Shown here piece by piece: positions 9,162-55,084 of a DNA stretch of 64,000 bases. The notes beneath the pieces were generated by a model. It searched no databases, had not been told where the DNA came from, and was given only the letters and a program-made list of their open reading frames with translations. The stretch is from the UHGV virus genome UHGV-0179428; one strand, 5' to 3'. The stretch comes from a virus. Position 1 is the stretch's first letter. Every line of letters begins with the position of its first letter. The position numbers and the translations under genes were made by a program.

Positions 9162-9172
9162 GATAAAAGTCC

Positions 9173-9658
9173 TTAGTATTTAGATTGTTCTACGTACTTC
9201 TTAACCAGGTAAGCGAATTCGGCAACACCGATATCACCGAACCAAATCAGATAACCGGGGTCGATGTTGTAGTAATAGCCGACGAGTTTCTTGGTGTGTG
9301 GGTTGTATAGCGTTACGATGTATTCCCAACCACAAGCGTTAGCTTTACAACCGCCACTTTCAATCCAGATTTTGTTGTTGATGTTTACCGGATACATGTT
9401 ACCGCCAGGGCCATCCATGTAACCTTTAGAGCCGAACATACCATCCAGCCCCACAGGGTCTAATGTTTTATCAACAACGGCTTTAAACGACTTATCGGTA
9501 TCGTACAAGTCGTTGATGTTTGGGCACGCATTTGGCTGACCTTCCCAAGCGTTTCCATCACAGGTAAGCAGTTCGTCTACGGAGGCCGCATCTACACTTG
9601 GTGTGGCACCGATAAACAAGAAAACCAGAAAGAACATCAGTGTGTGTAAACGTTTCAT
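9173..9658 (-). CDS. secreted protein with signal peptide, hypothetical
   Basis: ORF track; N-terminal MKRLHTLMFFLVFLFIGATPSVDA; AAAGGAG RBS. Confidence 0.7.
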   Translation of the reverse strand: MKRLHTLMFFLVFLFIGATPSVDAASVDELLTCDGNAWEGQPNACPNINDLYDTDKSFKAVVDKTLDPVGLDGMFGSKGYMDGPGGNMYPVNINNKIWIESGGCKANACGWEYIVTLYNPHTKKLVGYYYNIDPGYLIWFGDIGVAEFAYLVKKYVEQSKY

Positions 9659-9676
9659 TGTAACTACTCCTTTAGA

Positions 9677-10063
9677 TTATTCGGCAGGACGATTTAAGGT
9701 AACGCGTCCGATTAATTCGGCGTTGTGAAAGAAGTCCACAGCGGTATAGTTACCAACTGATAGCGGATGGATACTAACTGACATTACCTTTGGTTGTTCG
9801 CAAGCGATATCCGTCAGACGTTGGTAGACTTGTGCACGGGTGTCAGCAATGAGTAATCCCGTACACGTTTCACCACGCACTAAACGATAAACTTGCAGTT
9901 TACCGAAACTGCGCATTAACGTAGGCGTCTCGTCCGGGTTGATAATCGGTGAGTCAGGAGCCGGTTCGTAATAGCGGACATCCGAATCACCGAAAGCATA
10001 AGTGCCAGTAATTCCGACTGCACAGAAAATAATGATAGTATAAAGTATAGTTCTGATATTCAT
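9677..10063 (-). CDS. secreted protein with signal peptide, hypothetical
   Basis: ORF track 9677-10069 (GTG); ATG at 10063 gives MNIRTILYTIIIFCAVGITGTYA signal-like N-terminus. Confidence 0.6.
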   Translation of the reverse strand: MNIRTILYTIIIFCAVGITGTYAFGDSDVRYYEPAPDSPIINPDETPTLMRSFGKLQVYRLVRGETCTGLLIADTRAQVYQRLTDIACEQPKVMSVSIHPLSVGNYTAVDFFHNAELIGRVTLNRPAE

Positions 10064-22444: not shown

Positions 22445-22457
22445 GGAGAATTTTTTG

Positions 22458-25400
22458 ATGAAAGCGTATCCTTACGATCCTCGGGGGACGAAAGCCGAGA
22501 ATCACTTCTTAGAGGAGCGTATCATCGGGTCAGAGAACAACAACGATCGGGTGGTGATTTTAGACCACCGCCCGTTCTTTGAAGATTTGGTCGTCAGACA
22601 ACCAGGTTCAACCACCCCACTGAGTCGTGGGGTGGACTACGAACTGCAATATCAGCTGACGGAACTGGATGACTCGGTAGCAGCCAACGTGTATTGTGGG
22701 GTACACCTTATCAACCCATCCATCAAGGGTATCGTAACCTTTGAAGGACAAATGCTCGGCGGTACGTTCTACGACCCGTTTGTTGATATTCTCGATGAAC
22801 TGGTGAAATATTTGAATAACCCAGTCAGTGCTGACTGGTTGTTATTAGACGGTAGACCATCGTTATATCCAGCGACGCCAGCAGCAACGTCCTGGGCGGA
22901 TTTGCTGAACAAAAAATATTTAGCGTCGGCAGTTCACGACATTGAATTGAAAACCGACGACGCTAACCAATTAATTAAAGACAAATTAGCTGAAGTTAAA
23001 GCGTTAGTGACTGCGTTGGGTAAAGAAATCGAAGCATTTAACTACCCAGCACATATCGCAGCGAAGAACCCGCACGAAACCACATCCGCGCAGATTAACG
23101 CGCATCCTGTTAACTTGAAAACCCCCGACACCTTTATGGCGTACGGGTTAAAGTTGAAAGCACTGACGGATGAGCTGAAAGCGTTTCGTTTACCCCAGTC
23201 AGTTATCGACACGTATATCTCTCACTGGATTTCTTCGGAAGTACGGGGCGTGTTTAACTGTACGGTGTCAGGAAACCGCGCACAGTTCCGTTCGAAAAAC
23301 GGTGAGTCAGAAATCATTTTTGCCAACGATGGCTTTACGTTAAAATCCAACGGTTCTGTGGTATTAGCGGTAGGACATCTGGAAGGCACAGGTGCAGGAC
23401 GTTACATTAATTGGCGTGCTGGTAAAAACACCTTACGTATCGAGTCAACCGGCGATGCTTTAGGGATGAACAAACTCACCCTGAATGGTAACCCGTTACT
23501 GACTACCACAGCTTTGATGGAATACCAACAAGATCCTGATGCTGGCGGGAGCGGCGGCGGTGATCCTGATGACTCGAAGGTGTACATCGAAGGCCGTAAT
23601 GGGATTAGCTTCACCGGTAAAGGCTCTCGGACCGATCCTATCGTGGGTACTATCGACCCGACGAAAGCGACAACCGCTGAAAAAGGTGTTGTTAAGCTTA
23701 AAACTGGTAAAGGTACAGAAACGGTTGGGGTTGCAGCAACGCCAGCGTCATTAACACCTTATTCGACCGACCTATCAGGGTATGTGGCTAAAACGACCAT
23801 GATTAACGGTAAGCCAATGAATGACGGCTCCAGGACAATCACGAAAGCTGACCTGGGGTTAGGGCAAGCGGATAACACCGCAGACCTTGACAAACCGTTG
23901 TCAACCGAGTTAACTAAGGCGGTTAGCGGTCTAGCAGATGTAGGCCATCATCACGATTGGTCGGAGTTAGGCATTTATAAAGCTTCTCAATCTGTTTACG
24001 GTATTGGTCGTTATGCAACTAACCAGAACGGTTTGGTTGAAAACCGTGCAGTGGTACCGAACATCTTAAAAGAGCTTTCGGCACGTTTAAGTGTGGTCGC
24101 TGCGGCAATTGCAAATGCGAAAGAAGGAACAGTCACGGATTTCGCTGCTGTAAAAGGCGCAGACTGGCGATTTAATAGCCAGGGTACGGCAATCTCCGTT
24201 CAGGATTTGAAATATTTCTATTTGCTGGACGGCACGAAAGGTGACAGTACCGTTACCGGTGCGATTGACCTGCAAACCACCCCGATGTTTAACTGGTTCT
24301 CACCGAACAACCAACTTGAGCTGACTTGGGCTACGGGTAAGGTGAGTAACGGTACGGGAATCAACTGGACGGGTATTGAAGAACCGCCATTGATGGGGTT
24401 CCAGTCTGTCCCGGTAGGTAAGACTGCTACACAGATGGGTGACCAGTCAGTTGTTACTGTATTGGCAAAAACGCGTGTAAAAGCATACCAACCGAAGCTC
24501 TGGGTTTATGCTGCTGGGGGTGGTCCGGTTACGGTTTACATTAACGGTATCCAGGCAGCCACAGGCCAGTCTCCACTCGTCGCGGTGTATGAAACGTCGT
24601 CAGACGTTGAAAATTACACAGTGGCGGTTAAAGCCGAGTGTAGCGACACGACTAAATCCGCAGCGGTACAGTTCGAAGTTTACGATGGTGACTACCCCGT
24701 TTATTTCAGTGGCCCTGAAACGCGCGTAGAGCTTCTCCAGGAGTTTGTTACAACGCACGTAGGGGTTCGTCACTATTTGTACGTTAACATGCTCACAGGC
24801 TCTCTGTATTCGCGTGCTGAACCGATTCAGAGTATTGCCGTCGACCCAGAACGCGGTTATATCGGTTATGTTGATATCGTTCCTGGTCAGTCTTACGCGA
24901 ATAAAACTGTGGGATTTGAAACCACGTTTGATTTCGGGAAAAGTGCGGAAGTTAGCGAGCACATCAGCACTCGTAAGGCACACGGTCTCAGCGCTGTTGA
25001 CTGGGCGTTAACGGATAACCCACGGTTGCCGTTATTAAACCGTGCTATTGCTGAACCAAGAGCGTGTATCTTTAGGAAACCGTTAGCAACCGCTACAGGG
25101 GATGTTTTCCATCTTGTCAGTCGTGGCCTTTATACCTACGCACACAACCAAAACGTGAAGTCGAGTCTTCAATACGTTGTGATACCTGAAGGTGCTACGC
25201 CGTATTGTTGGTTTACACCATTTAACCCGAAAGAAAACAACGCACCGACATTCGAAGGCTCGTTTGCGTTCGATGTTGACGATGTTGGTGGAACGCAAGC
25301 CCTTGCTGCTGCGCCGGATTTGGTTCTATGCACGTCAACGCAAGGTAGCAGCGTTAAACGTCGCTATCTGCGCATTGACCTAACTACCAAAACCTGTAAG

Positions 25401-26639
25401 TTGGGGATTGGTTCCCGTTCAGATTCTGCTGTTACGGATATTCCGTTAGTGATGGAGGAGTCTGGGGAAACGGCAGTGGCCGCAACGTTTAAGGATGTGT
25501 TGTTCAACGGTGAGGAAACCAACGCGGCGACGCTCGACTTGATAGGTTGGGGTGCCAGCCGAGATAAAATTCCTGCAAACCATGCACCTCGTGGCATGAT
25601 TCGCTATCGTTACAACGTAAACAGTCGGGTATTACGTTTAGCACTGACGTTCTCACAGTTCGGAACGACAACAGTTAAACATCGACAGCTGGAGATTCAA
25701 TTCCCGTTCGATTTAGTGGATTATTTCACTGGCGACGGTGTGGGATTGTCGTTTAAAGAACTGTCTGCGAAATGTCGTGTAACGATTAGTCACGCGCTGA
25801 TTGATCCGGCTACGAGTAACGTCGACATTGATAAGTACCATTACTTACGTTCGTTGTTCGAATCGTATCTGGATTCGTCCGTTGGGTATTTGGCTGATAC
25901 CAAAGACGTTGATTTTAGTCAGTCTGTGATTGACCCTGCGACTTATGAGGTTAGTCAAAAATACCGCGTTACAGAAAGCATCGCGCTGCCAACCGGCCAG
26001 GGAAGTGTTGCTGTTTCCCATGACGGTCAGTTGCCTGCGCAGTTCTTTGACCGTAAGCTGTCTCGTGGTGCCTTGATGGCCAAGAAAGGTGAACTCAACG
26101 CTTCCTGGAATAATGAGTGGAGCACGACTAAAGCTGCTGCGAGTCGTTATCGCCATAAACTCATTCTACGCTTTGCACAAGGTGCTGATAAACAGCAGTA
26201 TCGCGTTGCAAAAGTGGCCGGGACGGTGAAGTCTAACTGGCCGGGTAAAGTGATTATCGGTGATGCCGGGAAGGACCCGTATGTATCGGCTATTGATAGC
26301 GTATCTTTTGCGCTTTCGACCGCCTCTGATACAGGTAAAGCGATTACTCTTACGCCAAAGGACTTACGTGTAGGTCAAGACATTTATATTGTCTTAGAAC
26401 CGCCCGGCAATAATCCAGAAGGTTATGAACTTAACTTCACTTGTTCGTTAGATGTCACTGACGAGAAAAGTGTCCGTCAAGATCAACTCAATGCACAGAG
26501 TTTCGAACTCCGTAGCGGCGAAAGTCAGTTCTTAATGGAGAAACGCAACCCGTACCACATCACGAGTAAAGCGTGGAAGTGGATTCTGGCTGTACTGAAA
26601 CGAGAACTTAACGGGAAGCAGTTAGGGGATCGTACTTAG
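22458..26639 (+). CDS. giant tail fibre / receptor-binding-like protein 2 (1393 aa)
   Basis: ORF track 22455-26639; ATG at 22458 after AAGGAGAA; N-terminal RPFFEDL...GVDYEL module; terminator hairpin downstream. Confidence 0.7.
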   Translation: MKAYPYDPRGTKAENHFLEERIIGSENNNDRVVILDHRPFFEDLVVRQPGSTTPLSRGVDYELQYQLTELDDSVAANVYCGVHLINPSIKGIVTFEGQMLGGTFYDPFVDILDELVKYLNNPVSADWLLLDGRPSLYPATPAATSWADLLNKKYLASAVHDIELKTDDANQLIKDKLAEVKALVTALGKEIEAFNYPAHIAAKNPHETTSAQINAHPVNLKTPDTFMAYGLKLKALTDELKAFRLPQSVIDTYISHWISSEVRGVFNCTVSGNRAQFRSKNGESEIIFANDGFTLKSNGSVVLAVGHLEGTGAGRYINWRAGKNTLRIESTGDALGMNKLTLNGNPLLTTTALMEYQQDPDAGGSGGGDPDDSKVYIEGRNGISFTGKGSRTDPIVGTIDPTKATTAEKGVVKLKTGKGTETVGVAATPASLTPYSTDLSGYVAKTTMINGKPMNDGSRTITKADLGLGQADNTADLDKPLSTELTKAVSGLADVGHHHDWSELGIYKASQSVYGIGRYATNQNGLVENRAVVPNILKELSARLSVVAAAIANAKEGTVTDFAAVKGADWRFNSQGTAISVQDLKYFYLLDGTKGDSTVTGAIDLQTTPMFNWFSPNNQLELTWATGKVSNGTGINWTGIEEPPLMGFQSVPVGKTATQMGDQSVVTVLAKTRVKAYQPKLWVYAAGGGPVTVYINGIQAATGQSPLVAVYETSSDVENYTVAVKAECSDTTKSAAVQFEVYDGDYPVYFSGPETRVELLQEFVTTHVGVRHYLYVNMLTGSLYSRAEPIQSIAVDPERGYIGYVDIVPGQSYANKTVGFETTFDFGKSAEVSEHISTRKAHGLSAVDWALTDNPRLPLLNRAIAEPRACIFRKPLATATGDVFHLVSRGLYTYAHNQNVKSSLQYVVIPEGATPYCWFTPFNPKENNAPTFEGSFAFDVDDVGGTQALAAAPDLVLCTSTQGSSVKRRYLRIDLTTKTCKLGIGSRSDSAVTDIPLVMEESGETAVAATFKDVLFNGEETNAATLDLIGWGASRDKIPANHAPRGMIRYRYNVNSRVLRLALTFSQFGTTTVKHRQLEIQFPFDLVDYFTGDGVGLSFKELSAKCRVTISHALIDPATSNVDIDKYHYLRSLFESYLDSSVGYLADTKDVDFSQSVIDPATYEVSQKYRVTESIALPTGQGSVAVSHDGQLPAQFFDRKLSRGALMAKKGELNASWNNEWSTTKAAASRYRHKLILRFAQGADKQQYRVAKVAGTVKSNWPGKVIIGDAGKDPYVSAIDSVSFALSTASDTGKAITLTPKDLRVGQDIYIVLEPPGNNPEGYELNFTCSLDVTDEKSVRQDQLNAQSFELRSGESQFLMEKRNPYHITSKAWKWILAVLKRELNGKQLGDRT

Positions 26640-26675
26640 GACAGACTGCCTGCGGGCAGTTGTGTGTCCGTAGGT

Positions 26676-26714
26676 AACCCCTCCCTGTAATGGGGAGGGG
26701 TATCCATTTTATTT
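26676..26714 (+). terminator. rho-independent terminator
   Basis: ACCCCTCCC-tgtaat-GGGGAGGGGT hairpin followed by T-rich tract. Confidence 0.6.
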
Positions 26715-26733
26715 AAAAGTAGGAGTCTTTACG

Positions 26734-29700
26734 ATGCCGAGAGAAGACGCGGCGCAGTTTAACGGTACGCTAAGCACAGTGACGTACCCTAACCGATTTA
26801 ACGTGGTCATTCCGCCTGAAGGACCTTTTTATCGTATCGGATTAAAACTCACAGTAGCCGACGATACCGCGCCTAACGGACGTCGTACTCTGATTGAGGG
26901 GTTGGACTACTATTTAGGCTATTACTTTAAAGAACTCGCAGAAGCTGAACAAGATCAGATTTATGGCGGGTTTATGTTGCTTACTGCAACAGAAATCGAA
27001 TATGAGATTTTAGGGGTAGCACGGCAGTATCGTGTACCGCAATCTGAAATCGGGAAGTTCTTAGTTCGTACTGACCTGAAAGACCCACGTAACGTGGACT
27101 GGTCGGAGTTAATGGCGTACGCGCCGGTTATTCAACCAATCGACCCCCCTGCTAACTTAGAAGAAGCTATTCTGAGGGACGAGGTCGTTAAAGCGTTGAA
27201 CGATATCCGCAAGAAAATCATTCAGCGTTCAACAGAGTTAGATGCGGCCTTCACCGAAGTCACTAACCTGATTTACGAGAACGGTAAAAAGATTTTCGAT
27301 GAAGAACTATACCAACACCACCTTAATCCTAACGCTCACCAGTATACGACCAATGACGTTGGGGCCCTTCCGGTTTTAGGACGTGCTGTTGACGCTACAA
27401 AAGCGTTTGGGTTGACAATTGACCAACTGGCTACGCTGATGGGTTCGGCGGGCATTGAGCAATCAGACGTTGAACAGTTAATGGGCGAAGCCCTCGGTAC
27501 CGTTTACGGTCGTTGGGGTACCACGAACGGTAATGAACTAACGTTTAAAACACCGGGTGGACACATCATCAGCATCCGTGGTGATAAGTGGTTAATTACT
27601 TCACCACAACCGTTAGTGATTAAAGCAGACCAAGACAACAACGAATCCGGTTTGGCGGTTGAGTTTAGTGCGGGGCTGAATACGCTTTGGGTACACTCTG
27701 GGTCAGAACAGGATGTATTAGCACCGGTCTATAACTCTGTGTATTTGGTTACACCAGAAATGGTGAACATGTACCTGACGTCTGTAACGTTACTTGAAGC
27801 GAACGCCTATTTCAAATCGTCTGACACCGTAAAACCGTACGGTACAGCGAAGCAGTCTAACCCACTAACGTTGAATGCGAATATTCCCACAGCAACCGAG
27901 TCGGTTTATGGGGTGTTTTCGATTACGAATATCGCAACCTCTGTAGCGCTAGGCACTGCTATTTCCCAAAAGGCTGTGACCGAGTTAAAAAACCGGTTGG
28001 ACTTGTACGTTGATGATAGCTACACGGTTAACGGTAAAGGGTTTGTTAAGACAGGCGACAACATGGTGTTAACCTTAACGAAGGCCGATTTCGGTATCGA
28101 TAAGATGAATAACACCACACCCATCGCTAAACCGGTAACAAAAGCATTAGCGAACGTGCTGAAAAATAAAAGTTTGAAGGTACACACGCACACTACCGCT
28201 GATTTGGATAATGTCCCGATTGGTAGCGCAACAGTGGACGGTATCTTACAGCTGTGGGATGCGATTGATACCACGAATGATAAAGCCGTTACATCACGCC
28301 AAGGGTGGTTGTTCGCAAAAGAGATTAAGAAGGTCTCTGATAAACTGAATACCCTCTTGCCCGCATGGACAACGGCCGGGAGCAAATATACCAACAATTC
28401 GATATTGCCGATCTTGTCGATGGGTAATTACGAAGGTTATGGTAAAAACATGGATGCGCTCCAGATGGTTATAGGGGTACAACAAGGTAAGCTTTACGCT
28501 TTAATTAGTTCTAAATCTGCCCTTCCGGGAACTGAGGGTATTTATTACGCTGTTGCTGGGTTAAAAAACGACAAAAGTCTCGGTGAAATTTACAAAACAA
28601 CTTTCCGTTATAAGCCGAAAGGGTTAGAGACGAATTATCCGGGGGTGGAACTAAAAGAAATTACCGTTACTGGTACCGAAGCATTTATAGCGAAGGGCAG
28701 CGACGATAATTATTATTTAGTTAAACTGAACGGTTCAATGGATTACACCAAACATACCGATGTCAGGTTGGTAACTTTCTCAGAATTTGTTTCAGAAACA
28801 ACATGGGAATTTGTGCCGAATATGTTCATGGATCGTGTGGTCATAGCCGATAACGGCGTCTATGTTTTGCGTACGATGCTAATGGCCGATCTGAAAAACA
28901 ATAGTCTGGTGGACTACATTAAGGATACTCCGCAACCTATGTTCCGTGTTGGGTTATTGCGGCTTAATAAAACCGATCGGTTTGAACAGGTTGATTTAAG
29001 CTCTACACGAAAAATCGGTAAGTGTGCCGATTTGGTTGAACCTGGCGCGTTCGATGTAGATAATCCGAATACGAAGCGTCTTGCCTACTTCACTGCGGAA
29101 GGCAAAGCGTTGTGGACAGTGAATTTACAATTAACTAGAGGGGTGTCAAGATGGATAACGCCCGTTGTTAAGGACGGTCACTTGTTAACCGTCGGCGTGT
29201 CTGGCGTTTGTCTTGGTTTTTCTTCAACGAAAGGTACCACATTCGGGCCATGGAATGGTGCTTATCGTCTCGACCTATTAACCGGGGAGGTTGGGTTAGA
29301 GACAACTAACATCTTCCCAATCAAAATCGATACTACAGGTTGCTACTTAAAAGACGGAACAAAAATAGAGCTGAAATGGAAATGGGCTACTCGAAGTTCT
29401 GGCTATATGACCGACAATAGAATCTGTGTCGGTGATATGGTTTATTCTTGCTGCTGTTCGACAGAAAAACAACTTGCACCATCTCTCCATTACCAGAAAC
29501 TCCCAGAAGGAGTTAGTTATCTGGACTATGTTAAGTTGAGTGCGGGGTATGAGGGGCAATCTACGTTTGAAAATCGGATAAACCCTGTGGTGGGTTCGGT
29601 GTGGAAACCGTCTATGACCTTCCCATTGTTCTTCCCAGGAACAAACAAAGTATGGCTTAAACATCAAAAAACGGCTTATTTCATTGAAGCCGAATATGAT

Positions 29701-31920
29701 AAAGATACGACTTATGGTTATCCTGGATACGGCGGGTTTGGACCAACATCCCGCCGTGTTGAAAAAAAAGCGAACGAATACGGCGTATTGACAAATATAC
29801 CGCTGGTTGTTACGCCAGACATACCGAAAGGTCTACTAGATGGGGCTTACTTTATCGGTGCTGAAAGTAAACCATGTAAAGTTGTTTACGGTACCACTAC
29901 GGTGGCTAGTGATCGGTTGTCTATCGATGCGGCAGAATGGGCGAAGTTGACTAATATTGTTCAGTCCAGCCAGTTCTCTGGGGCTTCTAACGGCAACGCC
30001 TATGAGCGGATTAGCGTAGCTAAGACCAAAAAGAACAACTACAGTTTGTCCTTTTGGGTGCTTGGTCAAACGATGTCTGGTGGTCCGCTTTGTATCGCGA
30101 TAGTGAGTCTTATCTATAAAGACACTGACGGGGTAAATAAGTTTGCTTTTTACTTCTTTCAGGTAAAACCGACTATAACCAACGGGGTCATAAGGTTCGT
30201 TAGTTCGGAAGCGAGAATGATGACGTTCAGGGAAAAAGTGGCCAGTAACGCCATTAATCTCTCACCCACAGCTTTTAATGGTGAACTTAAACAACGCTCC
30301 GGTCAAGTTTTCCTTTATTCGCAAGACGGACAAAAGTTCAGATTCTCAATACATAACCTGGTTGGCGGGAATCTTGTAGGATCAGAGATTTCTTTTGCTT
30401 TTGGGATAAACTTGACTAAAAAAGGAGAATGGTTTACCGGCGAAATTCATCGGGCGTGGGGCTATACGTATACGCTGAATAATACATCTGAAGTCTATAT
30501 ACCCGATCTCTCGGGCATCGCGCTATTGACTTGTAACTCGGAAGATTTAAACGAGTTGTATCTCGGTGGCGAACAGTATAGAATCTCTGATTTGTTTAAC
30601 AAAAAATATACTGTTATCGATAAGATTATTATTGGCGGCGTACAAACACAGAGCGGTTGGAATTTCTATCTGACGGAGGAAACCGAGTTAAGTTTTGGAA
30701 ATAAAAGATATACCGTTCCAAGATGGTCCGTTGATTTAAGCGATGAATTCCCGACTAATCACGCTAACCAGACATTCTACGTTTATGCTGAAGTGGTCGG
30801 TTCTACTGCCCAATACCGCATCGGTTTAGAGCAGTTAGCTGATACCTCGTCGAGACTGTTTGTTGGGACAGTAACCACTGATTCGAACCGTATTACGGAT
30901 ATCAGTATCGATAAAGTAAAACGGTTAGGTCGTGTAAAAGAGCTGGAAAATCATGCCTCGGTTGTTGATCAGCACGATGTGGCGCAGGCGTTCGACAGGA
31001 AAACTGGTCCACTATTAACAGTGGTTAATAAACCCGTTAAAGCCATTACAGCATCTGCGAGCAAGGGTGCTGGGTATGTCGATGGTCAGAAATGGAATAC
31101 GTTGTCCGGGATTGCAACGCGGCCCAGGTTGCCGGTACAGGAAACCTATTCAGGTTATAAAAGTATCAGCAGGGTGGCGTATGAGAACTGCGCTGACCAG
31201 TTCTGGCAGAAAGCGGTTGCTGCGAACGTTGCAGCGGCTACTGCTTCTGAGAACAAACAAGCAGCAACCGCGAACATGAAGTGGTTGGGTGCGTATACGA
31301 AACCGACTACCGGCGAGTATGCATATCTGGCATTGAGTCTGCGTGTTAAAGTACCTGGCGATCCTGGTACTACTAATCGTCGACTGAAAATCAGGCTTGC
31401 GGCCCCGACAGGTATAACTCAAGTTCGTTACGGGCTAAATCAGTCTGGCGGTACGATGACTGAACAGACAGTAACATTAACTGCTAACAGCTATCTGGAA
31501 AAAGAACACGCCGGATTTAAGCCAGCCGAAGAAGTCCGTGTACATGCTACGTTTGTCATTCCAAAAAATGAATACGATAGCTACCGTACGAAGTTCGGTG
31601 CTGTTCAGCTGATTGACGTTGAGTCGAACACTGTCATTAAACAGACAGATATCGACACACCGTTTATCGTGTATACCGACACGGAGTTAGCAGCACAATC
31701 TGGTTTGGTGTATAAAGCGGTTAAGGGTCAGTTCCATCAACTCCCGTCTCAACCTGTCGTCATTGTAACTGATGGACAGACAGGGACTACGCCACCGGTG
31801 AAAACCTCGTTTGCTGACGGGACATTAACGGTCTACGTGGCAACCACGTACGACGCGGTGAATCCAGCACAAACGCGCGATATCGATAAGCTCCAGTTCA
31901 ATCTTATGTTTACATCTTAA
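26734..31920 (+). CDS. giant tail fibre / receptor-binding-like protein 3 (1728 aa)
   Basis: ORF track; AGGAGTCTTTACG-ATG; N-terminal GPFYRIGL...GLDYYL module. Confidence 0.7.
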   Translation: MPREDAAQFNGTLSTVTYPNRFNVVIPPEGPFYRIGLKLTVADDTAPNGRRTLIEGLDYYLGYYFKELAEAEQDQIYGGFMLLTATEIEYEILGVARQYRVPQSEIGKFLVRTDLKDPRNVDWSELMAYAPVIQPIDPPANLEEAILRDEVVKALNDIRKKIIQRSTELDAAFTEVTNLIYENGKKIFDEELYQHHLNPNAHQYTTNDVGALPVLGRAVDATKAFGLTIDQLATLMGSAGIEQSDVEQLMGEALGTVYGRWGTTNGNELTFKTPGGHIISIRGDKWLITSPQPLVIKADQDNNESGLAVEFSAGLNTLWVHSGSEQDVLAPVYNSVYLVTPEMVNMYLTSVTLLEANAYFKSSDTVKPYGTAKQSNPLTLNANIPTATESVYGVFSITNIATSVALGTAISQKAVTELKNRLDLYVDDSYTVNGKGFVKTGDNMVLTLTKADFGIDKMNNTTPIAKPVTKALANVLKNKSLKVHTHTTADLDNVPIGSATVDGILQLWDAIDTTNDKAVTSRQGWLFAKEIKKVSDKLNTLLPAWTTAGSKYTNNSILPILSMGNYEGYGKNMDALQMVIGVQQGKLYALISSKSALPGTEGIYYAVAGLKNDKSLGEIYKTTFRYKPKGLETNYPGVELKEITVTGTEAFIAKGSDDNYYLVKLNGSMDYTKHTDVRLVTFSEFVSETTWEFVPNMFMDRVVIADNGVYVLRTMLMADLKNNSLVDYIKDTPQPMFRVGLLRLNKTDRFEQVDLSSTRKIGKCADLVEPGAFDVDNPNTKRLAYFTAEGKALWTVNLQLTRGVSRWITPVVKDGHLLTVGVSGVCLGFSSTKGTTFGPWNGAYRLDLLTGEVGLETTNIFPIKIDTTGCYLKDGTKIELKWKWATRSSGYMTDNRICVGDMVYSCCCSTEKQLAPSLHYQKLPEGVSYLDYVKLSAGYEGQSTFENRINPVVGSVWKPSMTFPLFFPGTNKVWLKHQKTAYFIEAEYDKDTTYGYPGYGGFGPTSRRVEKKANEYGVLTNIPLVVTPDIPKGLLDGAYFIGAESKPCKVVYGTTTVASDRLSIDAAEWAKLTNIVQSSQFSGASNGNAYERISVAKTKKNNYSLSFWVLGQTMSGGPLCIAIVSLIYKDTDGVNKFAFYFFQVKPTITNGVIRFVSSEARMMTFREKVASNAINLSPTAFNGELKQRSGQVFLYSQDGQKFRFSIHNLVGGNLVGSEISFAFGINLTKKGEWFTGEIHRAWGYTYTLNNTSEVYIPDLSGIALLTCNSEDLNELYLGGEQYRISDLFNKKYTVIDKIIIGGVQTQSGWNFYLTEETELSFGNKRYTVPRWSVDLSDEFPTNHANQTFYVYAEVVGSTAQYRIGLEQLADTSSRLFVGTVTTDSNRITDISIDKVKRLGRVKELENHASVVDQHDVAQAFDRKTGPLLTVVNKPVKAITASASKGAGYVDGQKWNTLSGIATRPRLPVQETYSGYKSISRVAYENCADQFWQKAVAANVAAATASENKQAATANMKWLGAYTKPTTGEYAYLALSLRVKVPGDPGTTNRRLKIRLAAPTGITQVRYGLNQSGGTMTEQTVTLTANSYLEKEHAGFKPAEEVRVHATFVIPKNEYDSYRTKFGAVQLIDVESNTVIKQTDIDTPFIVYTDTELAAQSGLVYKAVKGQFHQLPSQPVVIVTDGQTGTTPPVKTSFADGTLTVYVATTYDAVNPAQTRDIDKLQFNLMFTS

Positions 31921-31960
31921 CGCCACGAGACAAGGACGTCTCGGATTAAGGAGAGTGGCC

Positions 31961-33160
31961 ATGGCCTCCATTGTATACCAATACCCTTTAGATTTAACGG
32001 GAAGCCTAACCTCTAACGCCGTGGAGCGTCAGGTTACGTTAGGTACAGGTAAAGTTAACCGTGCGTTTGCTTTTCCTGATGGACCGTTTTATGCCGATAC
32101 GTTCCGCTTGCGGGTTGCCAACCGACCCGATGCGACGTATGAGCGCGGAACGGACTATGAGTTGATTTTTGCACATCCGGCTTACGAGAAATTGACGAAG
32201 AACCGGGAAGTGGTAATGGCGGTTGTTGTAACGAACACCGCCATTCCGACCGATATCACGGTATCGGCGCAAGTAGTCGGGGGTCCGCAGTCTGCAAACG
32301 TGACTGCGATAGAACAGGCGATTGCTGAGTTGAATCTCGATAATCGAACTGTCGGCTTTAAAGACTTGCGAAATGTTCCTGATACATTTCCGTCAGCACC
32401 AACGTATAAAGACGTCGGTGATATTTACGGTTTCGAATATATCATTACAGTGCTCGCTGGCATTAAAGATGCGATAACGGCGGGCGATGCTGTACAGCTT
32501 GAGAACATCAAAGCGATTCTCGAAAGCCTGAAAAACGATTTCCTGGACGCGCTGAACGCACACATTAACGCCACGGGTAACGTCCACCATCTGGATATTC
32601 ACCAGGTTAACGGGTTAACAGAAACGGAGATCCGTGCACTTATCCGTGATGTACAGTCTGCCATCGATGCAACCATTACCGATATTAATGCGTTGAAGAA
32701 AGCAGATGAAGCGTTAGGAAAACGTATTGATGCTGTTGTCAAATCTTTGGAAGCGTGGAACGACCAACTTAACATCGTTGCACAAAACTACCAGAAAATG
32801 GCATTGGCATTGGCGAACCTAAATTCGTTAGTGTTACAGTTACAGAAAAATATCAACGATCTGAACACCAAACTCAACCAAGCGATTCAGCGCATTGCTG
32901 CGTTAGAACAGCGGGGTAATGAGTCCGATCAGAAAATTGATAATCTGCAACAAAACCTGGATGCGCTTAAACAACAGGTTGCGAATAACACGAACGCAAT
33001 CAGTCAGGCGAATCAGAACCTACAAAACCATATTGCGGCAGATAACCCACACACGGGCTATCTCCACAAGAAATACGGTGGTGTGGTTCAGGCTCCAGTG
33101 CACGTTAACGCTAACTTGACGTCCCGTGATGACGTTCAGGCAGAAGCGGGTACGAAATAA
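31961..33160 (+). CDS. fibre-like protein 4 with coiled coil (399 aa)
   Basis: ORF track 31955-33160; ATG at 31961 after AAGGAGAG; N-terminal GPFYADTF...GTDYEL module; heptad-like Q/N/L-rich region. Confidence 0.7.
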   Translation: MASIVYQYPLDLTGSLTSNAVERQVTLGTGKVNRAFAFPDGPFYADTFRLRVANRPDATYERGTDYELIFAHPAYEKLTKNREVVMAVVVTNTAIPTDITVSAQVVGGPQSANVTAIEQAIAELNLDNRTVGFKDLRNVPDTFPSAPTYKDVGDIYGFEYIITVLAGIKDAITAGDAVQLENIKAILESLKNDFLDALNAHINATGNVHHLDIHQVNGLTETEIRALIRDVQSAIDATITDINALKKADEALGKRIDAVVKSLEAWNDQLNIVAQNYQKMALALANLNSLVLQLQKNINDLNTKLNQAIQRIAALEQRGNESDQKIDNLQQNLDALKQQVANNTNAISQANQNLQNHIAADNPHTGYLHKKYGGVVQAPVHVNANLTSRDDVQAEAGTK

Positions 33161-52512: not shown

Positions 52513-52552
52513 AAAAATAAAAAAGGTAGTAGGGGCTAAGCCCCTACTACCT
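52512..52552 (-). terminator. rho-independent terminator (strong 12-bp stem)
   Basis: GGTAGTAGGGGC-taa-GCCCCTACTACC hairpin flanked by A/T runs. Confidence 0.7.
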
Positions 52553-52557
52553 AAAAA

Positions 52558-53178
52558 TTACTTCATTCCGTTCTGAGAAAGTGTTGTCCCTGCAAGATGT
52601 TTAATAACGATCTTAACAGGTAAATTACCATTCTCGTACTGTACTTCGGTTTCAGACAAATCGTCGATATTGATAACTTTAGAGGGTACCTTCGCTAAAA
52701 CAACACGAATGGTGTGGGTTATTGTACTGGCTGTAGTTTTTGTATTACTAACGTAGAAATACGCATCAATAATACTACCATCCGCTGCCAGGTAAACCAA
52801 TTTATTTTCCAACAGGCACTGGCTATAAATTGACACTCCTGATAATTGCGAAACACCCAGCCTGTTGTTAACGTCAACCGTTGTTTTGCAGATTACCGCA
52901 CCACCCGTCAACGTTTTTTCTACTACCATATTTCCCGATAAGGTTTTTGCATCTATTTTTGGTACTACCGGATGAGCACCATTAACAAATAACCCATCGT
53001 TATTAGACTTAAGGATGTTATTCGCCGACGGACTCACTGTAACCTCAGTACCCCCTAATTTCTCAATCGGGAGTTGGTATTCAGTTTGTTCCTTAGACGC
53101 TAAGACTACTACACCCGTGACGTCTTCTGAAAGTGTCGGCAGTTCGTGAACGCGTACCTTTCCTACCAGTTCAGTCAT
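52558..53178 (-). CDS. short fibre-like protein sharing N-terminal module with the 1479-aa fibre
   Basis: ORF track; GGAGG RBS; N-terminal VRVHELPTLSEDVTGVVVLASKEQTEYQLPIEKL parallels fibre N-terminus IRLHDLRPYTGDIGEGVLLFSKDEKDYKLPVREI. Confidence 0.7.
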   Translation of the reverse strand: MTELVGKVRVHELPTLSEDVTGVVVLASKEQTEYQLPIEKLGGTEVTVSPSANNILKSNNDGLFVNGAHPVVPKIDAKTLSGNMVVEKTLTGGAVICKTTVDVNNRLGVSQLSGVSIYSQCLLENKLVYLAADGSIIDAYFYVSNTKTTASTITHTIRVVLAKVPSKVINIDDLSETEVQYENGNLPVKIVIKHLAGTTLSQNGMK

Positions 53179-53693
53179 TGGCGACCTCCGAATGTTAAGG
53201 CACGGTTATCTGCAGTGACGATTAAATCGTTGTCTTTTACTACAGCGGCTTCTTCGTCGTTACCGAAAACCAGAACGGAGAATTGACCTTTATAACCTAA
53301 CGAGTTGGGTGAAACCTGTAATGTTACAGTGTCTCTCCCTACGGTAAATGGTTCGTCGGTAAGATCTTCGGCTTGTAAATTGCAACCACAAGCCGCGTTA
53401 ATTCCGTCGATTAGATCGTGTGCGGTAAAGCCATTACCGAAAACCTTTACCAGAATAGGCTGCTGGTTTAACCACCGCTCTGCGGTTAAACGGTTGTAAT
53501 AGATCTGTAACGTTCTGTTGCCAGGACGTTTGATCTTTACAACAGCGGTAGTATCACGATCCATTTCATCGCTGATCTTTACTTCGCTGATTTCAACCTC
53601 ATTCTCTTGCAGATTGAGCTGAAGGTCGTGGTTGATCAGCGAAATAACCATGTTAGGTGAGGTTAGCGACAAATCTGGCACGAATTGTCCCAT
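53175..53693 (-). CDS. paralog-family protein (VPDLSL...LINHD N-terminus)
   Basis: ORF track 53175-53735; ATG at 53693 preferred from alignment with 59725-60291; ATGA overlap with downstream gene. Confidence 0.6.
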   Translation of the reverse strand: MGQFVPDLSLTSPNMVISLINHDLQLNLQENEVEISEVKISDEMDRDTTAVVKIKRPGNRTLQIYYNRLTAERWLNQQPILVKVFGNGFTAHDLIDGINAACGCNLQAEDLTDEPFTVGRDTVTLQVSPNSLGYKGQFSVLVFGNDEEAAVVKDNDLIVTADNRALTFGGRQ

Positions 53694-53781
53694 AAGCTTA
53701 CTCTCTACGGTTGGGGGATAAAATGATTCTAGCAATATTTTATCCCCGATTATATTTTCAAGCGCATTCAGTTGAAAATAA

Positions 53782-54285
53782 TTAGCTAATTCTCAAATCA
53801 CGCAGCGCGCCTGTTGATTTCATCACGTTTTGGAACGCAGCGCTGATGTTATTAGTCCAGTAATAATGCTGTCCGTTAATAACCTGCTGATAGGTCAGCG
53901 CGCAGGTGTTGCCACCTAAATTTACGGTAATGTTAGAGCCTCTGCCTCCTTGTAAGTAAACCGCTAAAGTAGGCTTTGCGTTGGCAACTATCGTTGTTAA
54001 CTGTAACTCAATACCTACTAAAGTTCCCACCCCGCAGTTACCCGCGTTTTGAATGGTTCCCTGATTTTTCTGGTTTAACGGCCAGCTTGGTCCTACTGCG
54101 CCCCATTTCTTACCTAAAGAATCGCTATATGCAGCGGTTGCAATTTTACAGCCCATAGATCGTCCCACCATTTGACTCATCATAAAAGGTCTACCCAATC
54201 CTAATTTACTACCAGCGGCGCTCATCCATTGTTCGCCCGTTTCGTTCTTGGCCGAAGAACCGACCCATCCAGATGCTACCCCCAT
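53782..54285 (-). CDS. Gly-rich protein (short paralog)
   Basis: ORF track; N-terminal GVASGWVGSSAKNE...EQWMS parallels 54302-55084. Confidence 0.65.
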   Translation of the reverse strand: MGVASGWVGSSAKNETGEQWMSAAGSKLGLGRPFMMSQMVGRSMGCKIATAAYSDSLGKKWGAVGPSWPLNQKNQGTIQNAGNCGVGTLVGIELQLTTIVANAKPTLAVYLQGGRGSNITVNLGGNTCALTYQQVINGQHYYWTNNISAAFQNVMKSTGALRDLRIS

Positions 54286-54301
54286 CTACCCTCTTTTTTA
54301 A

Positions 54302-55084
54302 TTAAACACGTGAACCGTATATTGCACCTACTGCGTCCCATCTTGGCGCATTACCAGTAACAGCTTTACCAGCTGCTCCGCCGTTATATTCTGTACCGTT
54401 ACCTTGAGTATTACATCTTCCTCCAGCAGCACCGACATTACCACCCGAACCGCCTGTATATGCACTAAGAGACCCCTCACCAACAGATCCTCTACCAGGA
54501 GCGGAAATAGTACCAGCAGCTGCACCGGAACTCATATGAGAGGAAGACCCACCAGCACCGAATGGGCGACCACCGCCACCACCAAATATTAGTCTACCCC
54601 TGTTACCGCCACCACCGCCGCCACCGCCTCCGGCAATAGCGCCACGGTTGGTTATACGCAGTCTGTTTCCTATTCCGTTCTGTATTGCGGTTCCACCTGC
54701 ACCGCCTGGTGAGTTAGAACCGCCGTTGCCTCCTCTGCCGTATACTGTAACCCCAGGATTGATGATGAGGGTAATATACGAATTTGGAAGATTGCTAGGG
54801 AATTCTAAACAAGGAACCGTGCTACTATGGGACACTAAATCCCCCGTAATAGTCACAACGACAGCAGTAGAGCCTAAAGAACGTAAATAGTTAATAAGCG
54901 TATCTTTATTGTAATTGTGATTAGCCCCGATCGAATACTGAACCTCTTTTGATTTTCCCGCCAATTGCGACATCCAGCCTGGAACCGGCACACCAAGTGT
55001 GCGCATCGCGCCAGACATCCATTCGTTACCAGCTTCAGCTTTTGCTGAAGAACCAATCCAACCACCTACGCCGACAACTGCCAT
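54302..55084 (-). CDS. Gly-rich protein with poly-Gly tract
   Basis: ORF track; start ATG overlaps fibre stop (TAATG); GGGGGGGGG and GGxGG runs. Confidence 0.7.
   Translation of the reverse strand: MAVVGVGGWIGSSAKAEAGNEWMSGAMRTLGVPVPGWMSQLAGKSKEVQYSIGANHNYNKDTLINYLRSLGSTAVVVTITGDLVSHSSTVPCLEFPSNLPNSYITLIINPGVTVYGRGGNGGSNSPGGAGGTAIQNGIGNRLRITNRGAIAGGGGGGGGGNRGRLIFGGGGGRPFGAGGSSSHMSSGAAAGTISAPGRGSVGEGSLSAYTGGSGGNVGAAGGRCNTQGNGTEYNGGAAGKAVTGNAPRWDAVGAIYGSRV
54571..54640 (-). repeat. GGN-codon simple repeat encoding poly-glycine
   Basis: ccgccaccaccgccgccaccgcc-type run on plus strand inside the Gly-rich gene. Confidence 0.7.

What the first reader, a model, noticed from the sequence alone, without database searches (positions are those of the whole stretch)
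53782..55084. Two paralogous Gly-rich proteins translationally coupled to the fibre gene
The first Gly-rich gene starts on the fibre gene's stop (TAATG) and contains a run of nine Gly plus many GGxGG stretches; the second shares the N-terminal W(V/I)GSSAK...(E/N)(Q/E)WMS region. Gly-rich proteins right after a fibre gene could be fibre assembly factors, flexible linkers, or secreted/colicin-like domains; the function is not inferable by eye. The GGN repeat is also a potential slippage site.
Basis: seen in the sequence. Interest (0 to 1): 0.5.

Follow-up and report, generated by a model that had tools for sequence, protein, structure and literature searches.

The report
Two tip adhesins for one fibre
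The two small genes after the tail-fibre gene are receptor-binding "cap" proteins of the well-known T2/S16 gp38 type, one classical glycine-rich and one small non-glycine version, which share only a docking domain; this probably lets a giant (about 225 kb) enterobacterial phage present two receptor specificities on one fibre.

Summary
All genes are on the minus strand. Gene A (54302..55084, 260 aa) is a canonical T2/S16-type Gp38 adhesin. It matches Pfam GP38 and Gp38_N, and PDB 6F45_D at 1.4e-49. Its receptor-specificity half is 89-90% identical to adhesins of OmpA-dependent coliphages. Gene B (53782..54285, 167 aa) is not Gly-rich (14% Gly). It shares only the ~40-aa Gp38_N docking domain with A. 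The rest is a predicted beta-sandwich with no solved homologue, and B belongs to PHROG 1121 "tail fiber adhesin". The upstream 1480/1500-aa fibre ends in a gp37-like tip plus a Peptidase_S74 self-cleaving chaperone, which is the known partner of gp38 adhesins. The genome is an SPN3US-related jumbo phage. SPN3US and SPAsTU have no such module at the syntenic locus. The fibre->A->B order recurs in about a dozen metagenome contigs, and B is under purifying selection (dN/dS 0.11-0.17). A sister lineage keeps the same fibre tip and B but has a different first adhesin. There, B starts with a poly-G tract of 8-11 G that is in frame in only 3 of 10 genomes. Best reading: two alternative monomeric adhesins compete for one fibre tip. 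This is a known system in an unusual two-slot form and an unusual phage.

The parts
55084..59586 (-). Long tail-fibre gene. The longest ORF is 1500 aa. The probable start is the ATG at 59526 (1480 aa), which has a GGGAG Shine-Dalgarno sequence upstream. The protein is a mosaic: a jumbo-phage N-terminal anchor (about 50 aa), a Phage_fiber_2 repeat, about six copies of a 40-aa shaft repeat, a Mu-S/P2-like domain, a Gp34_trimer domain, and a gp37-like tip followed by a self-cleaving chaperone.
   Evidence: Pfam: Phage_fiber_2 at aa 241-281, Gp34_trimer at aa 1276-1375, Peptidase_S74 at aa 1404-1458. PDB: 8ju3, 5yvq, 4uxe; 6F45_A (S16 gp37) matches aa 1359-1498 at 2.8e-12. Gene callers on related contigs give 1480 aa. 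The N-terminal 50 aa are 52% identical to SPN3US gp143.
55087..55377 (-). C-terminal intramolecular chaperone (Peptidase_S74) of the fibre. It is predicted to cleave itself off before Ser1404 (..NDVQIR|SDRRNKRN..), leaving the docking tip for an adhesin.
   Evidence: Pfam PF13884 at 5e-10, aa 1404-1458. The I-R-S-D-x-x-x-K motif is invariant in 9 fibres that precede Gp38_N genes. The cleavage position is inferred from what is known of the S74 family.
54302..55084 (-). Gene A: a canonical Gp38 adhesin of 260 aa. Docking domain at aa 1-42 (nt 54959-55084), with Trp9, Trp22 and Trp37. Beta-helix plus glycine-rich polyglycine-II sandwich at aa 47-260. Its start overlaps the fibre stop (TAATG).
   Evidence: Pfam GP38 5.2e-70 (profile positions 1-218 of 218) and Gp38_N 5.2e-14. 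phrog_2056 at 1.8e-93. PDB 6F45_D at 1.4e-49 and 9v85_A at 3.5e-38. It is 75-81% identical to gp38 of RB49, JSE, PaulHMueller and CMS-2020a.
54605..54631 (-). Nine-glycine run (aa 152-160) of gene A. It corresponds to the long central glycine-rich motif (helix 3, GGGGGGGG) of S16 gp38.
   Evidence: aligned to 6F45_D; PMC6851490. The length is invariant in all nine intact related copies.
54286..54301 (-). The 16-nt spacer between A and B, carrying B's ribosome-binding site (GAGGG, 5 nt before the ATG). Some relatives have a 44-nt insertion here.
53782..54285 (-). Gene B: a small Gp38_N adhesin of 167 aa. Docking domain at aa 1-40 (nt 54166-54285), with Trp7, Trp20 and Phe34/Met35. Predicted beta-sandwich at aa 45-167 (nt 53785-54153).
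   Evidence: Pfam Gp38_N only, 3.5e-20. phrog_1121 'tail fiber adhesin' at 2e-45, covering almost the full length. It is 60-64% identical to the 'tail fibre adhesin' of Stx phages and SSU5-like phage-plasmids. AlphaFold2 gives pLDDT 80-94 for aa 45-167. There is no PDB homologue by sequence or fold. dN/dS is 0.11-0.17.
59725..60324 (-). DUF7941 virion protein (paralogue a), the first gene of the module. It is probably the socket or adaptor for the fibre's N-terminal anchor.
   Evidence: PF25613 on the orthologous genes of related contigs. It is 34% identical to paralogue b, E=1e-30.
53175..53735 (-). DUF7941 virion protein (paralogue b), orthologue of SPN3US gp144.
   Evidence: Pfam DUF7941 at 5.6e-18. 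phrog_2935 and phrog_1037 'virion structural protein'. Similar to SPN3US and SPAsTU genes.
52558..53178 (-). A 206-aa short fibre-like protein that shares the fibre's N-terminal anchor of about 41 aa. A sister lineage has a 706-aa SASA/DUF6645 protein in this position.
   Evidence: BLASTP against the fibre N-terminus: 34% identity, E=1e-6. phmmer 2e-5. Similar to SPN3US gp143. Sister-lineage gene content.
60322..60353 (-). Strong intrinsic terminator (13-bp stem, T tail) immediately upstream of the module.
52524..52552 (-). Strong intrinsic terminator (13-bp stem, T tail) immediately downstream of the module. No comparable terminator lies between the six genes.

Best explanation
The region is the distal end of a receptor-recognition module of an SPN3US-related jumbo phage.

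Shown:
- The fibre gene ends in a gp37-like tip followed by a Peptidase_S74 chaperone domain.
- Gene A is a canonical T2/S16-type Gp38 adhesin.
- Gene B carries the same Gp38_N docking domain fused to an unrelated small beta-sandwich.
- Both genes are conserved, and B is under purifying selection.

Inferred:
- After the fibre trimerises, the S74 domain cuts itself off before Ser1404.
- One monomer of an adhesin then caps each trimeric tip. It docks through the three-helix Gp38_N bundle, whose apex hydrophobic residues (W9/W22/W37 in A; W7/W20/F34-M35 in B) insert into three equivalent pockets of the tip.
- Because A and B carry the same docking domain and there is only one such fibre in the window, they are alternative caps that compete for the same tips. 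A virion, or the phage population, would then carry fibres with two specificities.
- A most likely binds OmpA of E. coli-like hosts through the loops of its polyglycine sandwich. B binds a different receptor, still unknown, through its beta-sandwich.
- The locus behaves as a two-slot cassette array that is refilled by recombination with T-even phages, Stx prophages and SSU5-like phage-plasmids.
For: Identity of A:
- Pfam GP38 plus Gp38_N, phrog_2056, PDB 6F45_D at 1.4e-49.
- Residues 116-260 are 89-90% identical to gp38 of Bas45/PaulHMueller and FL18. Both phages depend on OmpA (PMC8594841; PMC12032242).

Fibre tip:
- Peptidase_S74 and homology to S16 gp37 in 6F45_A.
- The docking mode is known from the S16 structure (PMC6851490).

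Identity of B:
- Gp38_N at 3.5e-20 and phrog_1121.
- The best BFVD structural matches are other Gp38_N proteins.
- In 73 single-adhesin loci, small or Gly-rich Gp38_N genes sit directly after an S74-bearing fibre. In L009 a 96%-identical B homologue directly follows such a fibre with no A in between.

Interchangeability on one tip:
- A sister lineage has a fibre tip 97% identical over the last 205 aa, but a 181-aa small adhesin in slot 1 and a B gene 98% identical in nucleotides in slot 2.
- Isolates of the phage-plasmid CMS-2020a carry either a Gly-rich or a small adhesin; in the Gly-rich isolate (CP053388.1) the adhesin follows an S74 fibre homologous to that of L059. The neighbourhood of the small-adhesin isolate was not fetched.
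- L059 and PEi26 also carry two Gp38_N genes after one fibre.

Functionality:
- The fibre->A->B order is found in L002-L006, L008 and L010-L012.
- B has dN/dS 0.11-0.17 and A has 0.1-0.5.
- B has a good Shine-Dalgarno sequence.
- The six genes lie between two strong terminators.
- The window contains only one S74 fibre and exactly two Gp38_N ORFs.
Against: - No experiment or complex model shows that B, or even A, binds this fibre tip.
- B's docking domain was modelled at low confidence as a monomer (pLDDT 41-53 for aa 1-40). Its third apex tryptophan is replaced by Phe-Met.
- I found no published evidence that small Gp38_N proteins are in virions or bind receptors; their 'adhesin' label is annotation only.
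- The window covers only 64 kb of a genome of about 225 kb, so a second S74-bearing fibre that could be B's own partner may lie elsewhere.
- B is out of frame in 7 of 10 sister genomes, so it is dispensable at least there.
- OmpA as A's receptor is inferred from similarity. Single substitutions in the hypervariable loops can switch receptors (bioRxiv 10.64898/2026.04.02.716166).
Confidence: 0.6

Rival explanations
1. B is not a virion adhesin. It is a docking-domain-bearing assembly factor or transient cap: it binds the freshly cleaved fibre tip, protects or matures it, and is then displaced by A.
For: - GenBank records call the homologues 'distal long tail fiber assembly catalyst'.
- Transient chaperone caps on tail fibres have been described in Alteromonas phages (PMC10579305, listed; I did not read it in detail).
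Against: - The 'assembly catalyst' label comes from the unrelated T4 gp38. No chaperone family matched B.
- In Stx-type prophages, SSU5-like elements and many Straboviridae, a small Gp38_N protein is the only Gp38_N gene after an S74 fibre that lacks its own receptor-binding tip. Something there must bind the receptor.
- The C-terminal domain is the variable part among homologues while the docking domain is conserved. That is the pattern expected of a specificity domain.
Confidence: 0.15
2. B caps a different fibre, encoded outside the window or the 206-aa protein downstream. A and B would then not compete but equip two separate fibre sets.
For: - Only 64 kb of about 225 kb was inspected.
- The module contains a second fibre-like gene (52558..53178) with its own DUF7941 partner.
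Against: - The 206-aa protein has no S74 domain and no gp37-like tip.
- Across 85 loci, Gp38_N genes almost always follow an S74 fibre directly.
- In L009 a B homologue follows a fibre whose tip is 79% identical to the window's.
- B stays linked to this fibre across lineages even when the downstream fibre-like gene is swapped for a 706-aa SASA protein.
Confidence: 0.12
3. B is a functionless leftover of cassette exchange: the previous adhesin, displaced when the Gly-rich gp38 was inserted between the fibre and B.
For: - The window fibre's S74 domain is 77-88% identical to fibres paired with small adhesins, but only 55-57% identical to those paired with Gly-rich adhesins alone. This suggests fibre plus B was the older unit.
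- B is frameshifted in 7 of 10 sister genomes.
Against: - dN/dS is 0.11-0.17 against five non-identical relatives, including ones 35% diverged in protein sequence.
- The gene is intact with a strong ribosome-binding site in all window-type contigs.
- The frameshifts in the sister lineage are confined to one poly-G tract and include two different in-frame lengths (8 and 11). That looks like reversible switching rather than decay.
Confidence: 0.08
4. One reading: the Gly-rich proteins are flexible linkers, or secreted or colicin-like proteins.
For: Only the glycine content of A.
Against: A aligns end to end with a solved adhesin in which the glycine runs form a rigid polyglycine-II lattice (PMC6851490). 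No colicin, secretion or linker family matched either protein.
Confidence: 0.01

Closest known systems
T2/T6/S16-type long-tail-fibre tip: gp37 with a self-cleaving C-terminal chaperone, capped by a monomeric Gp38 adhesin (PDB 6F45; Pfam PF05268 and PF21721)
   Same: - Fibre with an S74 domain and a gp37-like tip.
- The adhesin gene lies immediately downstream.
- Gene A has the docking domain with three tryptophans, the beta-helix, the glycine-rich motifs and the hypervariable loops.
- A's specificity half is 89-90% identical to OmpA-binding adhesins of Tequatrovirus and Mosigvirus phages.
   Different: - The host genome is an SPN3US-related jumbo phage, not a member of Straboviridae.
- The fibre is a 1480-aa single-gene mosaic anchored by a jumbo-phage N-terminal module, rather than the gp34-gp37 assembly.
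- A second, non-glycine Gp38_N protein follows A.
Small Gp38_N 'tail fiber adhesins' (PHROG 1121): for example ORF66 of Stx phages P13374 and phi191, SSU5 and CMS-2020a phage-plasmids, Kanagawavirus PEi20/PEi26, Proteus phages PM2 and phiP4-3
   Same: B matches the family profile over nearly its full length. It has the same position after an S74 fibre and the same conserved docking domain with a variable C-terminal domain.
   Different: Here it is the second of two adhesin genes, and it sits in a jumbo phage. The family itself has no solved structure, and I found no published functional test.
Tandem gp38 genes of Edwardsiella phages PEi20/PEi26 and Klebsiella phage KLB31 (annotated twice as gene 38)
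   Same: Two Gp38_N genes after one gp37.
   Different: In PEi26 both copies are of the small type, and these phages belong to Straboviridae. The window pairs a Gly-rich with a small adhesin. I found no paper that discusses these pairs.
Poly-G contingency loci in phage receptor-binding genes (Fletchervirus phages of Campylobacter; phage contingency loci, PMC12633550)
   Same: In the sister lineage the B gene begins with ATG followed by a G tract of 8, 9, 10 or 11 bases, which switches the frame on or off. Two further G tracts in the same module also vary.
   Different: The window's own B gene has only G5 and is fixed in frame. The variation was seen between assemblies, not within a population, so sequencing or assembly error at homopolymers is not excluded.
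T4 gp38 / lambda Tfa-type tail-fibre assembly chaperones
   Same: They share the gene name '38' and the position after the fibre gene.
   Different: There is no sequence relationship; neither A nor B matched any chaperone family.

Membership tests
Gp38 adhesin, T2/S16 type (PF05268 + PF21721): gene A | N-terminal three-helix attachment domain with conserved apex tryptophans | tested here: met
   Gp38_N at 5.2e-14 over aa 1-42. W9, W22 and W37 are present in the sequence. The role of these residues comes from PMC6851490.
Gp38 adhesin, T2/S16 type: gene A | Beta-helix plus glycine-rich motifs that alternate with hypervariable segments (polyglycine-II sandwich) | tested here: met
   PF05268 covers profile positions 1-218 of 218 at 5.2e-70. 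Alignment to 6F45_D, including the GGGGGGGG helix, at 1.4e-49.
Gp38 adhesin, T2/S16 type: gene A | Encoded next to a gp37-like fibre whose C-terminus is a self-cleaving S74 chaperone | tested here: met
   Peptidase_S74 at aa 1404-1458. 6F45_A homology at 2.8e-12. TAATG overlap with the fibre stop.
Gp38 adhesin, T2/S16 type: gene A | One monomer caps the trimeric tip in the virion and binds an outer-membrane receptor | not testable with these tools
   This needs proteomics, a structure and adsorption assays. The only evidence here is 89-90% identity of the specificity half to OmpA-dependent adhesins.
Gp38 adhesin, T2/S16 type: gene B | Glycine-rich polyglycine sandwich domain (PF05268) | tested here: not met
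   No PF05268 hit. No PDB hit at E<=1. 14% Gly. The AlphaFold2 model is a plain beta-sandwich. B is therefore not filed as a canonical Gp38.
Small Gp38_N adhesins (PHROG 1121): gene B | Gp38_N docking domain | tested here: met
   3.5e-20 over aa 1-40. W7 and W20 are conserved. The third apex position is F34/M35 instead of G-W.
Small Gp38_N adhesins (PHROG 1121): gene B | Full-length similarity to the family, and a position downstream of an S74 fibre | tested here: met
   phrog_1121 at 2e-45, aa 1-160 against profile positions 1-173 of 181. Locus survey.
Small Gp38_N adhesins (PHROG 1121): gene B | Actual receptor binding and presence in the virion | not testable with these tools
   I found no experimental report for any member in six relevant literature searches.
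Tail-fibre assembly chaperones (T4 gp38, Tfa/Caudo_TAP) | Sequence membership in a chaperone family | tested here: not met
   No such Pfam or PHROG family matched A or B at E<=0.01.
Homopolymer contingency locus (phase-variable receptor-binding gene) | A long (>=7) homopolymer tract in or at the start of the coding sequence, with length variation that shifts the frame | tested here: not met
   The window's B gene has only G5 after AT, and A's Gly run uses mixed codons. The feature is met only in the sister lineage, with G8-G11.
Chimalliviridae-like jumbo phage (genome context) | Homology of large virion proteins to SPN3US-group phages, and a genome above 200 kb | tested here: met
   A 1394-aa virion protein is 41-50% identical to proteins of SPN3US, SPAsTU, phiEaH2 and pEa_SNUABM_29. 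Related contigs are 223-226 kb. SPN3US is classified in Chimalliviridae. Chimallin itself was not looked for.

The most novel reading that the evidence does not exclude
This clade of roughly 225-kb enterobacterial jumbo phages grafted a T-even-type fibre tip onto its own baseplate anchor. It runs the tip as a two-slot adhesin array. Several unrelated monomeric adhesins (Gly-rich gp38, a 181-aa type, the 167-aa B type) share one docking domain and compete for the same trimeric tip. In sister lineages the second adhesin is switched on and off by a poly-G contingency tract at its start codon. Each burst would then contain virions with different receptor repertoires, which amounts to bet-hedging of host range at the level of the fibre cap.
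Probability: 0.3. Interest if true: 0.65.

Novelty: new variant of a known kind. Interest (0 to 1): 0.42.

Why it matters
The gp37-gp38 'fibre plus detachable cap' system is the best-understood and most easily engineered determinant of host range in coliphages. It has so far been treated as one adhesin per fibre, and mostly within Straboviridae.

If two or three unrelated caps really share one docking domain and one tip, three things follow:
- Host range can be doubled by adding a 0.5-kb gene.
- The Gp38_N domain could serve as a general plug for engineering new specificities, including onto jumbo phages, which are attractive for therapy because their nucleus-like compartment evades many defences.
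- Receptor predictions made from genome sequence must look for more than one cap.

The small Gp38_N family has no solved structure, and I found no reported functional test of any member. It is common in Stx prophages and phage-plasmids, so a structure and a receptor for it would be useful in their own right.

Tried and rejected
- **Secreted, colicin-like or linker reading:** rejected by the Pfam and PDB matches.
- **Slippage of the GGN tract:** the run is encoded by mixed codons and its length does not vary in any related copy that retains it. Only one relative shows a 48-aa deletion between Gly motifs, and that could be an assembly artefact.
- **Near-identical cultured phage:** megablast of 24 kb found only gp38 fragments and a 5% hit to an Erwinia jumbo phage. 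The fibre's first 190 aa have no homologue in 50,697 phage records.
- **Exact 47-mer scan of IMG/VR for more B genes,** to measure poly-G lengths: 0 hits. I used 10 ENA genomes instead.
- **Literature on two gp38 genes or a second adhesin:** nothing relevant was found, and nothing on the Stx-phage 'tail fibre adhesin' function.
- **Sigma-70 promoter scan:** no enrichment over shuffles (11 found against 11.4 expected). This is uninformative, because phages of this group are, from general knowledge, transcribed by their own RNA polymerases.
- **Second S74 fibre or a third Gp38_N gene in the window:** none found.
Full report
**1. What is at the coordinates**

The ORFs are on the minus strand.
- A 1500-aa ORF (55084..59586) ends in TAA. 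This TAA overlaps the ATG of a 260-aa ORF, gene A (54302..55084), as TAATG.
- After a 16-nt spacer with a GAGGG ribosome-binding site comes a 167-aa ORF, gene B (53782..54285).
- A has 24.6% Gly, a nine-Gly run at aa 152-160 and many GG pairs.
- B has 14.4% Gly and no such motifs. The fibre itself has 10.7% Gly.
- A and B are similar only at the N-terminus: 21 of 38 residues identical, E=5e-10.

It is wrong in calling both proteins Gly-rich and both coupled to the fibre.

**2. Identity of the parts**

Gene A:
- It matches Pfam GP38 (PF05268) across the entire profile at 5e-70, plus Gp38_N.
- It matches PHROG 2056 'tail fiber protein; host specificity' at 1.8e-93.
- It matches the crystal structure of Salmonella phage S16 gp38, 6F45 chain D, at 1.4e-49.
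- In that structure the glycine runs form a rigid three-layer polyglycine-II sandwich, from which hypervariable loops contact the receptor. The N-terminal three-helix bundle docks onto the trimeric gp37 tip through three apex tryptophans (PMC6851490; PMC3157838). A has those tryptophans (W9, W22, W37).

Gene B:
- It matches only Gp38_N (3.5e-20), and PHROG 1121 'tail fiber adhesin' over nearly its full length.
- Its closest homologues, 60-64% identical, are the 'tail fibre adhesin' genes of Stx phages (P13374, phi191, 75/02) and of SSU5-like phage-plasmids.
- It has no relative in the PDB by sequence.
- An AlphaFold2 model gives a confident beta-sandwich for aa 45-167 (pLDDT 80-94) and a poorly defined docking domain.

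The fibre:
- It carries Phage_fiber_2, Gp34_trimer and, at aa 1404-1458, Peptidase_S74.
- Its last 140 residues are homologous to the S16 gp37 fragment in 6F45.
- This is the known arrangement of T2, T6, RB49 and S16. The chaperone domain cleaves itself off and a gp38 monomer then caps the tip (PMC9569957; bioRxiv 10.64898/2026.05.12.724579).

**3. Genome context**

- The window belongs to a jumbo phage. A 1394-aa virion protein is 41-50% identical to proteins of SPN3US, SPAsTU, phiEaH2 and pEa_SNUABM_29. SPN3US is classified in Chimalliviridae.
- Contigs that carry the same genes are 223-226 kb long.
- No cultured phage in the 50,697-record collection is close at the DNA level.
- Two strong intrinsic terminators (60353..60322 and 52552..52524) bracket six co-oriented genes: DUF7941a, fibre, A, B, DUF7941b and a 206-aa protein.
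- The two DUF7941 proteins are paralogues (34% identity, E=1e-30).
- The 206-aa protein shares the fibre's first ~41 residues.
- At the syntenic locus, SPN3US and SPAsTU have a single DUF7941 gene (SPN3US gp144), a 156-aa 'tail fiber protein' (gp143) and a ~1000-aa tail protein. gp143's N-terminus is 52% identical to the first 50 residues of the window's fibre. These 18.5-kb loci contain no Gp38_N gene and no S74 domain.

The window's fibre is therefore a chimera. It has a jumbo-phage anchor, a mosaic shaft with lambda Stf / P2 H / Mu S / T4 gp34-like pieces and a T-even-type tip with its adhesins. It sits in a duplicated adaptor-plus-fibre module.

**4. Is the pair real and maintained?**

- The exact B protein occurs on 11 metagenome contigs. 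All of those that extend far enough upstream show fibre -> A -> B -> DUF7941 -> 206-aa protein.
- I scanned IMG/VR with the conserved docking motif and searched the resulting loci with my own HMMs. Of 85 loci, 73 have one Gp38_N gene and 12 have two.
- The 12 comprise this phage and its close relatives (the window, L002-L006, L008, L010-L012), one 107-kb SSU5-like contig (L059, small adhesin then Gly-rich adhesin) and Edwardsiella phage PEi26 (two small adhesins).
- Almost every Gp38_N gene, of either type, directly follows a fibre gene with an S74 domain.
- B is under purifying selection: dN/dS is 0.11-0.17 against five non-identical relatives, including two with only 65% protein identity. 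A gives 0.1-0.5.

**5. Evidence that different adhesins use the same tip**

- (a) In L009 a 96%-identical B homologue directly follows a fibre whose tip is 79% identical to the window's, with no A in between.
- (b) In L011 and L012, A is 94-98% identical to the window's A, but B is a 65%-identical variant that resembles prophage versions. Slot 2 has therefore been exchanged.
- (c) A widespread sister lineage (about 225-kb genomes, L088-L101) has a fibre whose last 205 residues are 97% identical to the window's. Its slot 1 holds a 181-aa small adhesin (P0010) in place of the Gly-rich gp38. A 76-aa ORF follows, and then a B gene 98% identical in nucleotides.
- (d) Among isolates of the phage-plasmid CMS-2020a, CP053388.1 carries a Gly-rich adhesin directly after an S74 fibre homologous to that of L059, and CP054387.1 carries a small one whose neighbourhood I did not fetch.
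- (e) The window contains only one S74 fibre and exactly two Gp38_N ORFs.

**6. Likely receptors**

- A is itself mosaic. Residues 1-115 are 41-67% identical to gp38 of Bas45/PaulHMueller and FL18, whereas residues 116-260 are 89-90% identical. The matching DNA segment is 90-91.5% identical.
- Both of those phages require OmpA (PMC8594841; PMC12032242).
- OmpA of E. coli-like hosts is therefore the best guess for A. The caveat is that single loop substitutions can switch receptor.
- B's receptor is unknown.

**7. The slippage question**

- The nine-Gly run is encoded by mixed GGN codons, and its length is identical in all nine intact related copies of gene A.
- One relative (L010) has an in-frame 48-aa deletion between two Gly motifs. 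This fits the known role of these motifs as recombination sites (PMC3157838), but it could also be an assembly artefact.
- Unexpectedly, in the sister lineage the B gene begins with ATG followed by a poly-G tract. In ten independent ~225-kb assemblies the tract has 8 G (one genome), 9 G (three), 10 G (four) or 11 G (two).
- Only 8 and 11 G keep the frame, so B is intact in 3 of the 10 genomes.
- A second G tract upstream of DUF7941b also varies among these genomes. A G6/G7 tract splits the 706-aa SASA gene in one genome.
- A T10 control tract also varied by one base, and two 7-base tracts did not vary at all. Homopolymer error is therefore not excluded.
- Hypermutable poly-G tracts in receptor-binding genes are known in Campylobacter Fletchervirus phages, and phage contingency loci were described recently (PMC12633550).
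- The window's own B gene has only G5 and is fixed in frame.

**8. Verdict**

The finding resolves to a known system, a gp37-type fibre tip with a gp38 adhesin, so most of the mystery disappears. Three things remain of interest:
- the heterotypic two-adhesin arrangement;
- its presence on a chimeric fibre of an SPN3US-related jumbo phage, when SPN3US and SPAsTU lack it at the syntenic locus;
- the uncharacterised small Gp38_N adhesin family, with possible poly-G switching in sister genomes.

The mechanism of competition of two caps for one tip is inferred, not shown.

Noticed in passing
L088-L101 (sister-lineage genomes of about 225 kb), e.g. L092:2800-2815; the homologous site in the window is 54277-54285: The B-like gene starts with ATG followed by a poly-G tract of 8, 9, 10 or 11 G in ten independent assemblies. 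It is in frame in only 3 of the 10. The window has G5. This may be a phase-variable second adhesin, or it may be homopolymer sequencing or assembly error.
   Followed up: partly
L092-L101, about 3340-3352 (between the B-like gene and DUF7941b), and within the 706-aa SASA/DUF6645 gene (L099:3922-4546): Two further G tracts in the same receptor module vary in length among assemblies. In L099 a G6-to-G7 change splits the SASA gene into 193-aa and 533-aa ORFs.
   Followed up: partly
L010:5340-5978 (orthologue of window 54302-55084): This gene A orthologue has an in-frame 48-aa deletion running from one Gly motif (..SNSPG) to another (GAGGSSS..). The deletion removes the nine-Gly helix. It is either recombination between glycine-rich motifs or an assembly artefact.
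   Followed up: no
window 52558-53735 and 59725-60324; L103 (SPN3US) 9040-10043: The pair 'DUF7941 protein followed by a protein with a conserved N-terminal anchor of about 45 aa' is duplicated in the window. It corresponds to SPN3US gp144 and gp143. This looks like the socket-and-plug by which this phage group mounts interchangeable fibres.
   Followed up: partly
window 55900-57000 (fibre aa ~850-1180); L092-L101 columns 855-974 of the alignment: The fibre shaft contains about six copies of a 40-aa repeat (..GNQxTTGNAATATKLQTARxIGGVxFDGxxDIxLPGVN..). Relatives differ by exactly one 120-nt unit (fibres of 1439 versus 1479 aa).
   Followed up: no
window 59527-59586: The fibre ORF extends 20 codons upstream of its probable start (ATG at 59526, which has a good Shine-Dalgarno sequence). 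That extension contains a G7 run on the coding strand (59575-59581).
   Followed up: no
window 39970-39978: A C9 run (G9 on the minus strand) lies between two of three tandem paralogous-looking minus-strand genes of 176-180 aa (38791-40528). It is the only other G/C homopolymer of 7 or more bases in the 64-kb window.
   Followed up: no
L003-L006, between A and B (window equivalent 54286-54301): Some relatives carry a 44-nt insertion in the A-B spacer, making it 60 nt instead of 16 nt. It resembles the sequence upstream of the small-adhesin gene in the prophage-type loci L013/L014. This suggests that the B cassette arrived together with its own upstream region.
   Followed up: no
L059:5412-6516: In the SSU5-like contig, the two adhesin genes are separated by three small ORFs. 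One is an 81-aa protein whose N-terminal sequence (hydrophobic stretch ending ..LSAC) looks like a lipoprotein signal by eye; it might be a superinfection-exclusion gene. This was not tested.
   Followed up: no
window 18122-33160: Four consecutive plus-strand genes (1440, 1394, 1728 and 401 aa) are mutually related 'virion structural proteins' (PHROGs 7557, 8078, 7449 and 2163). This is a paralogous family typical of SPN3US-group jumbo phages.
   Followed up: no
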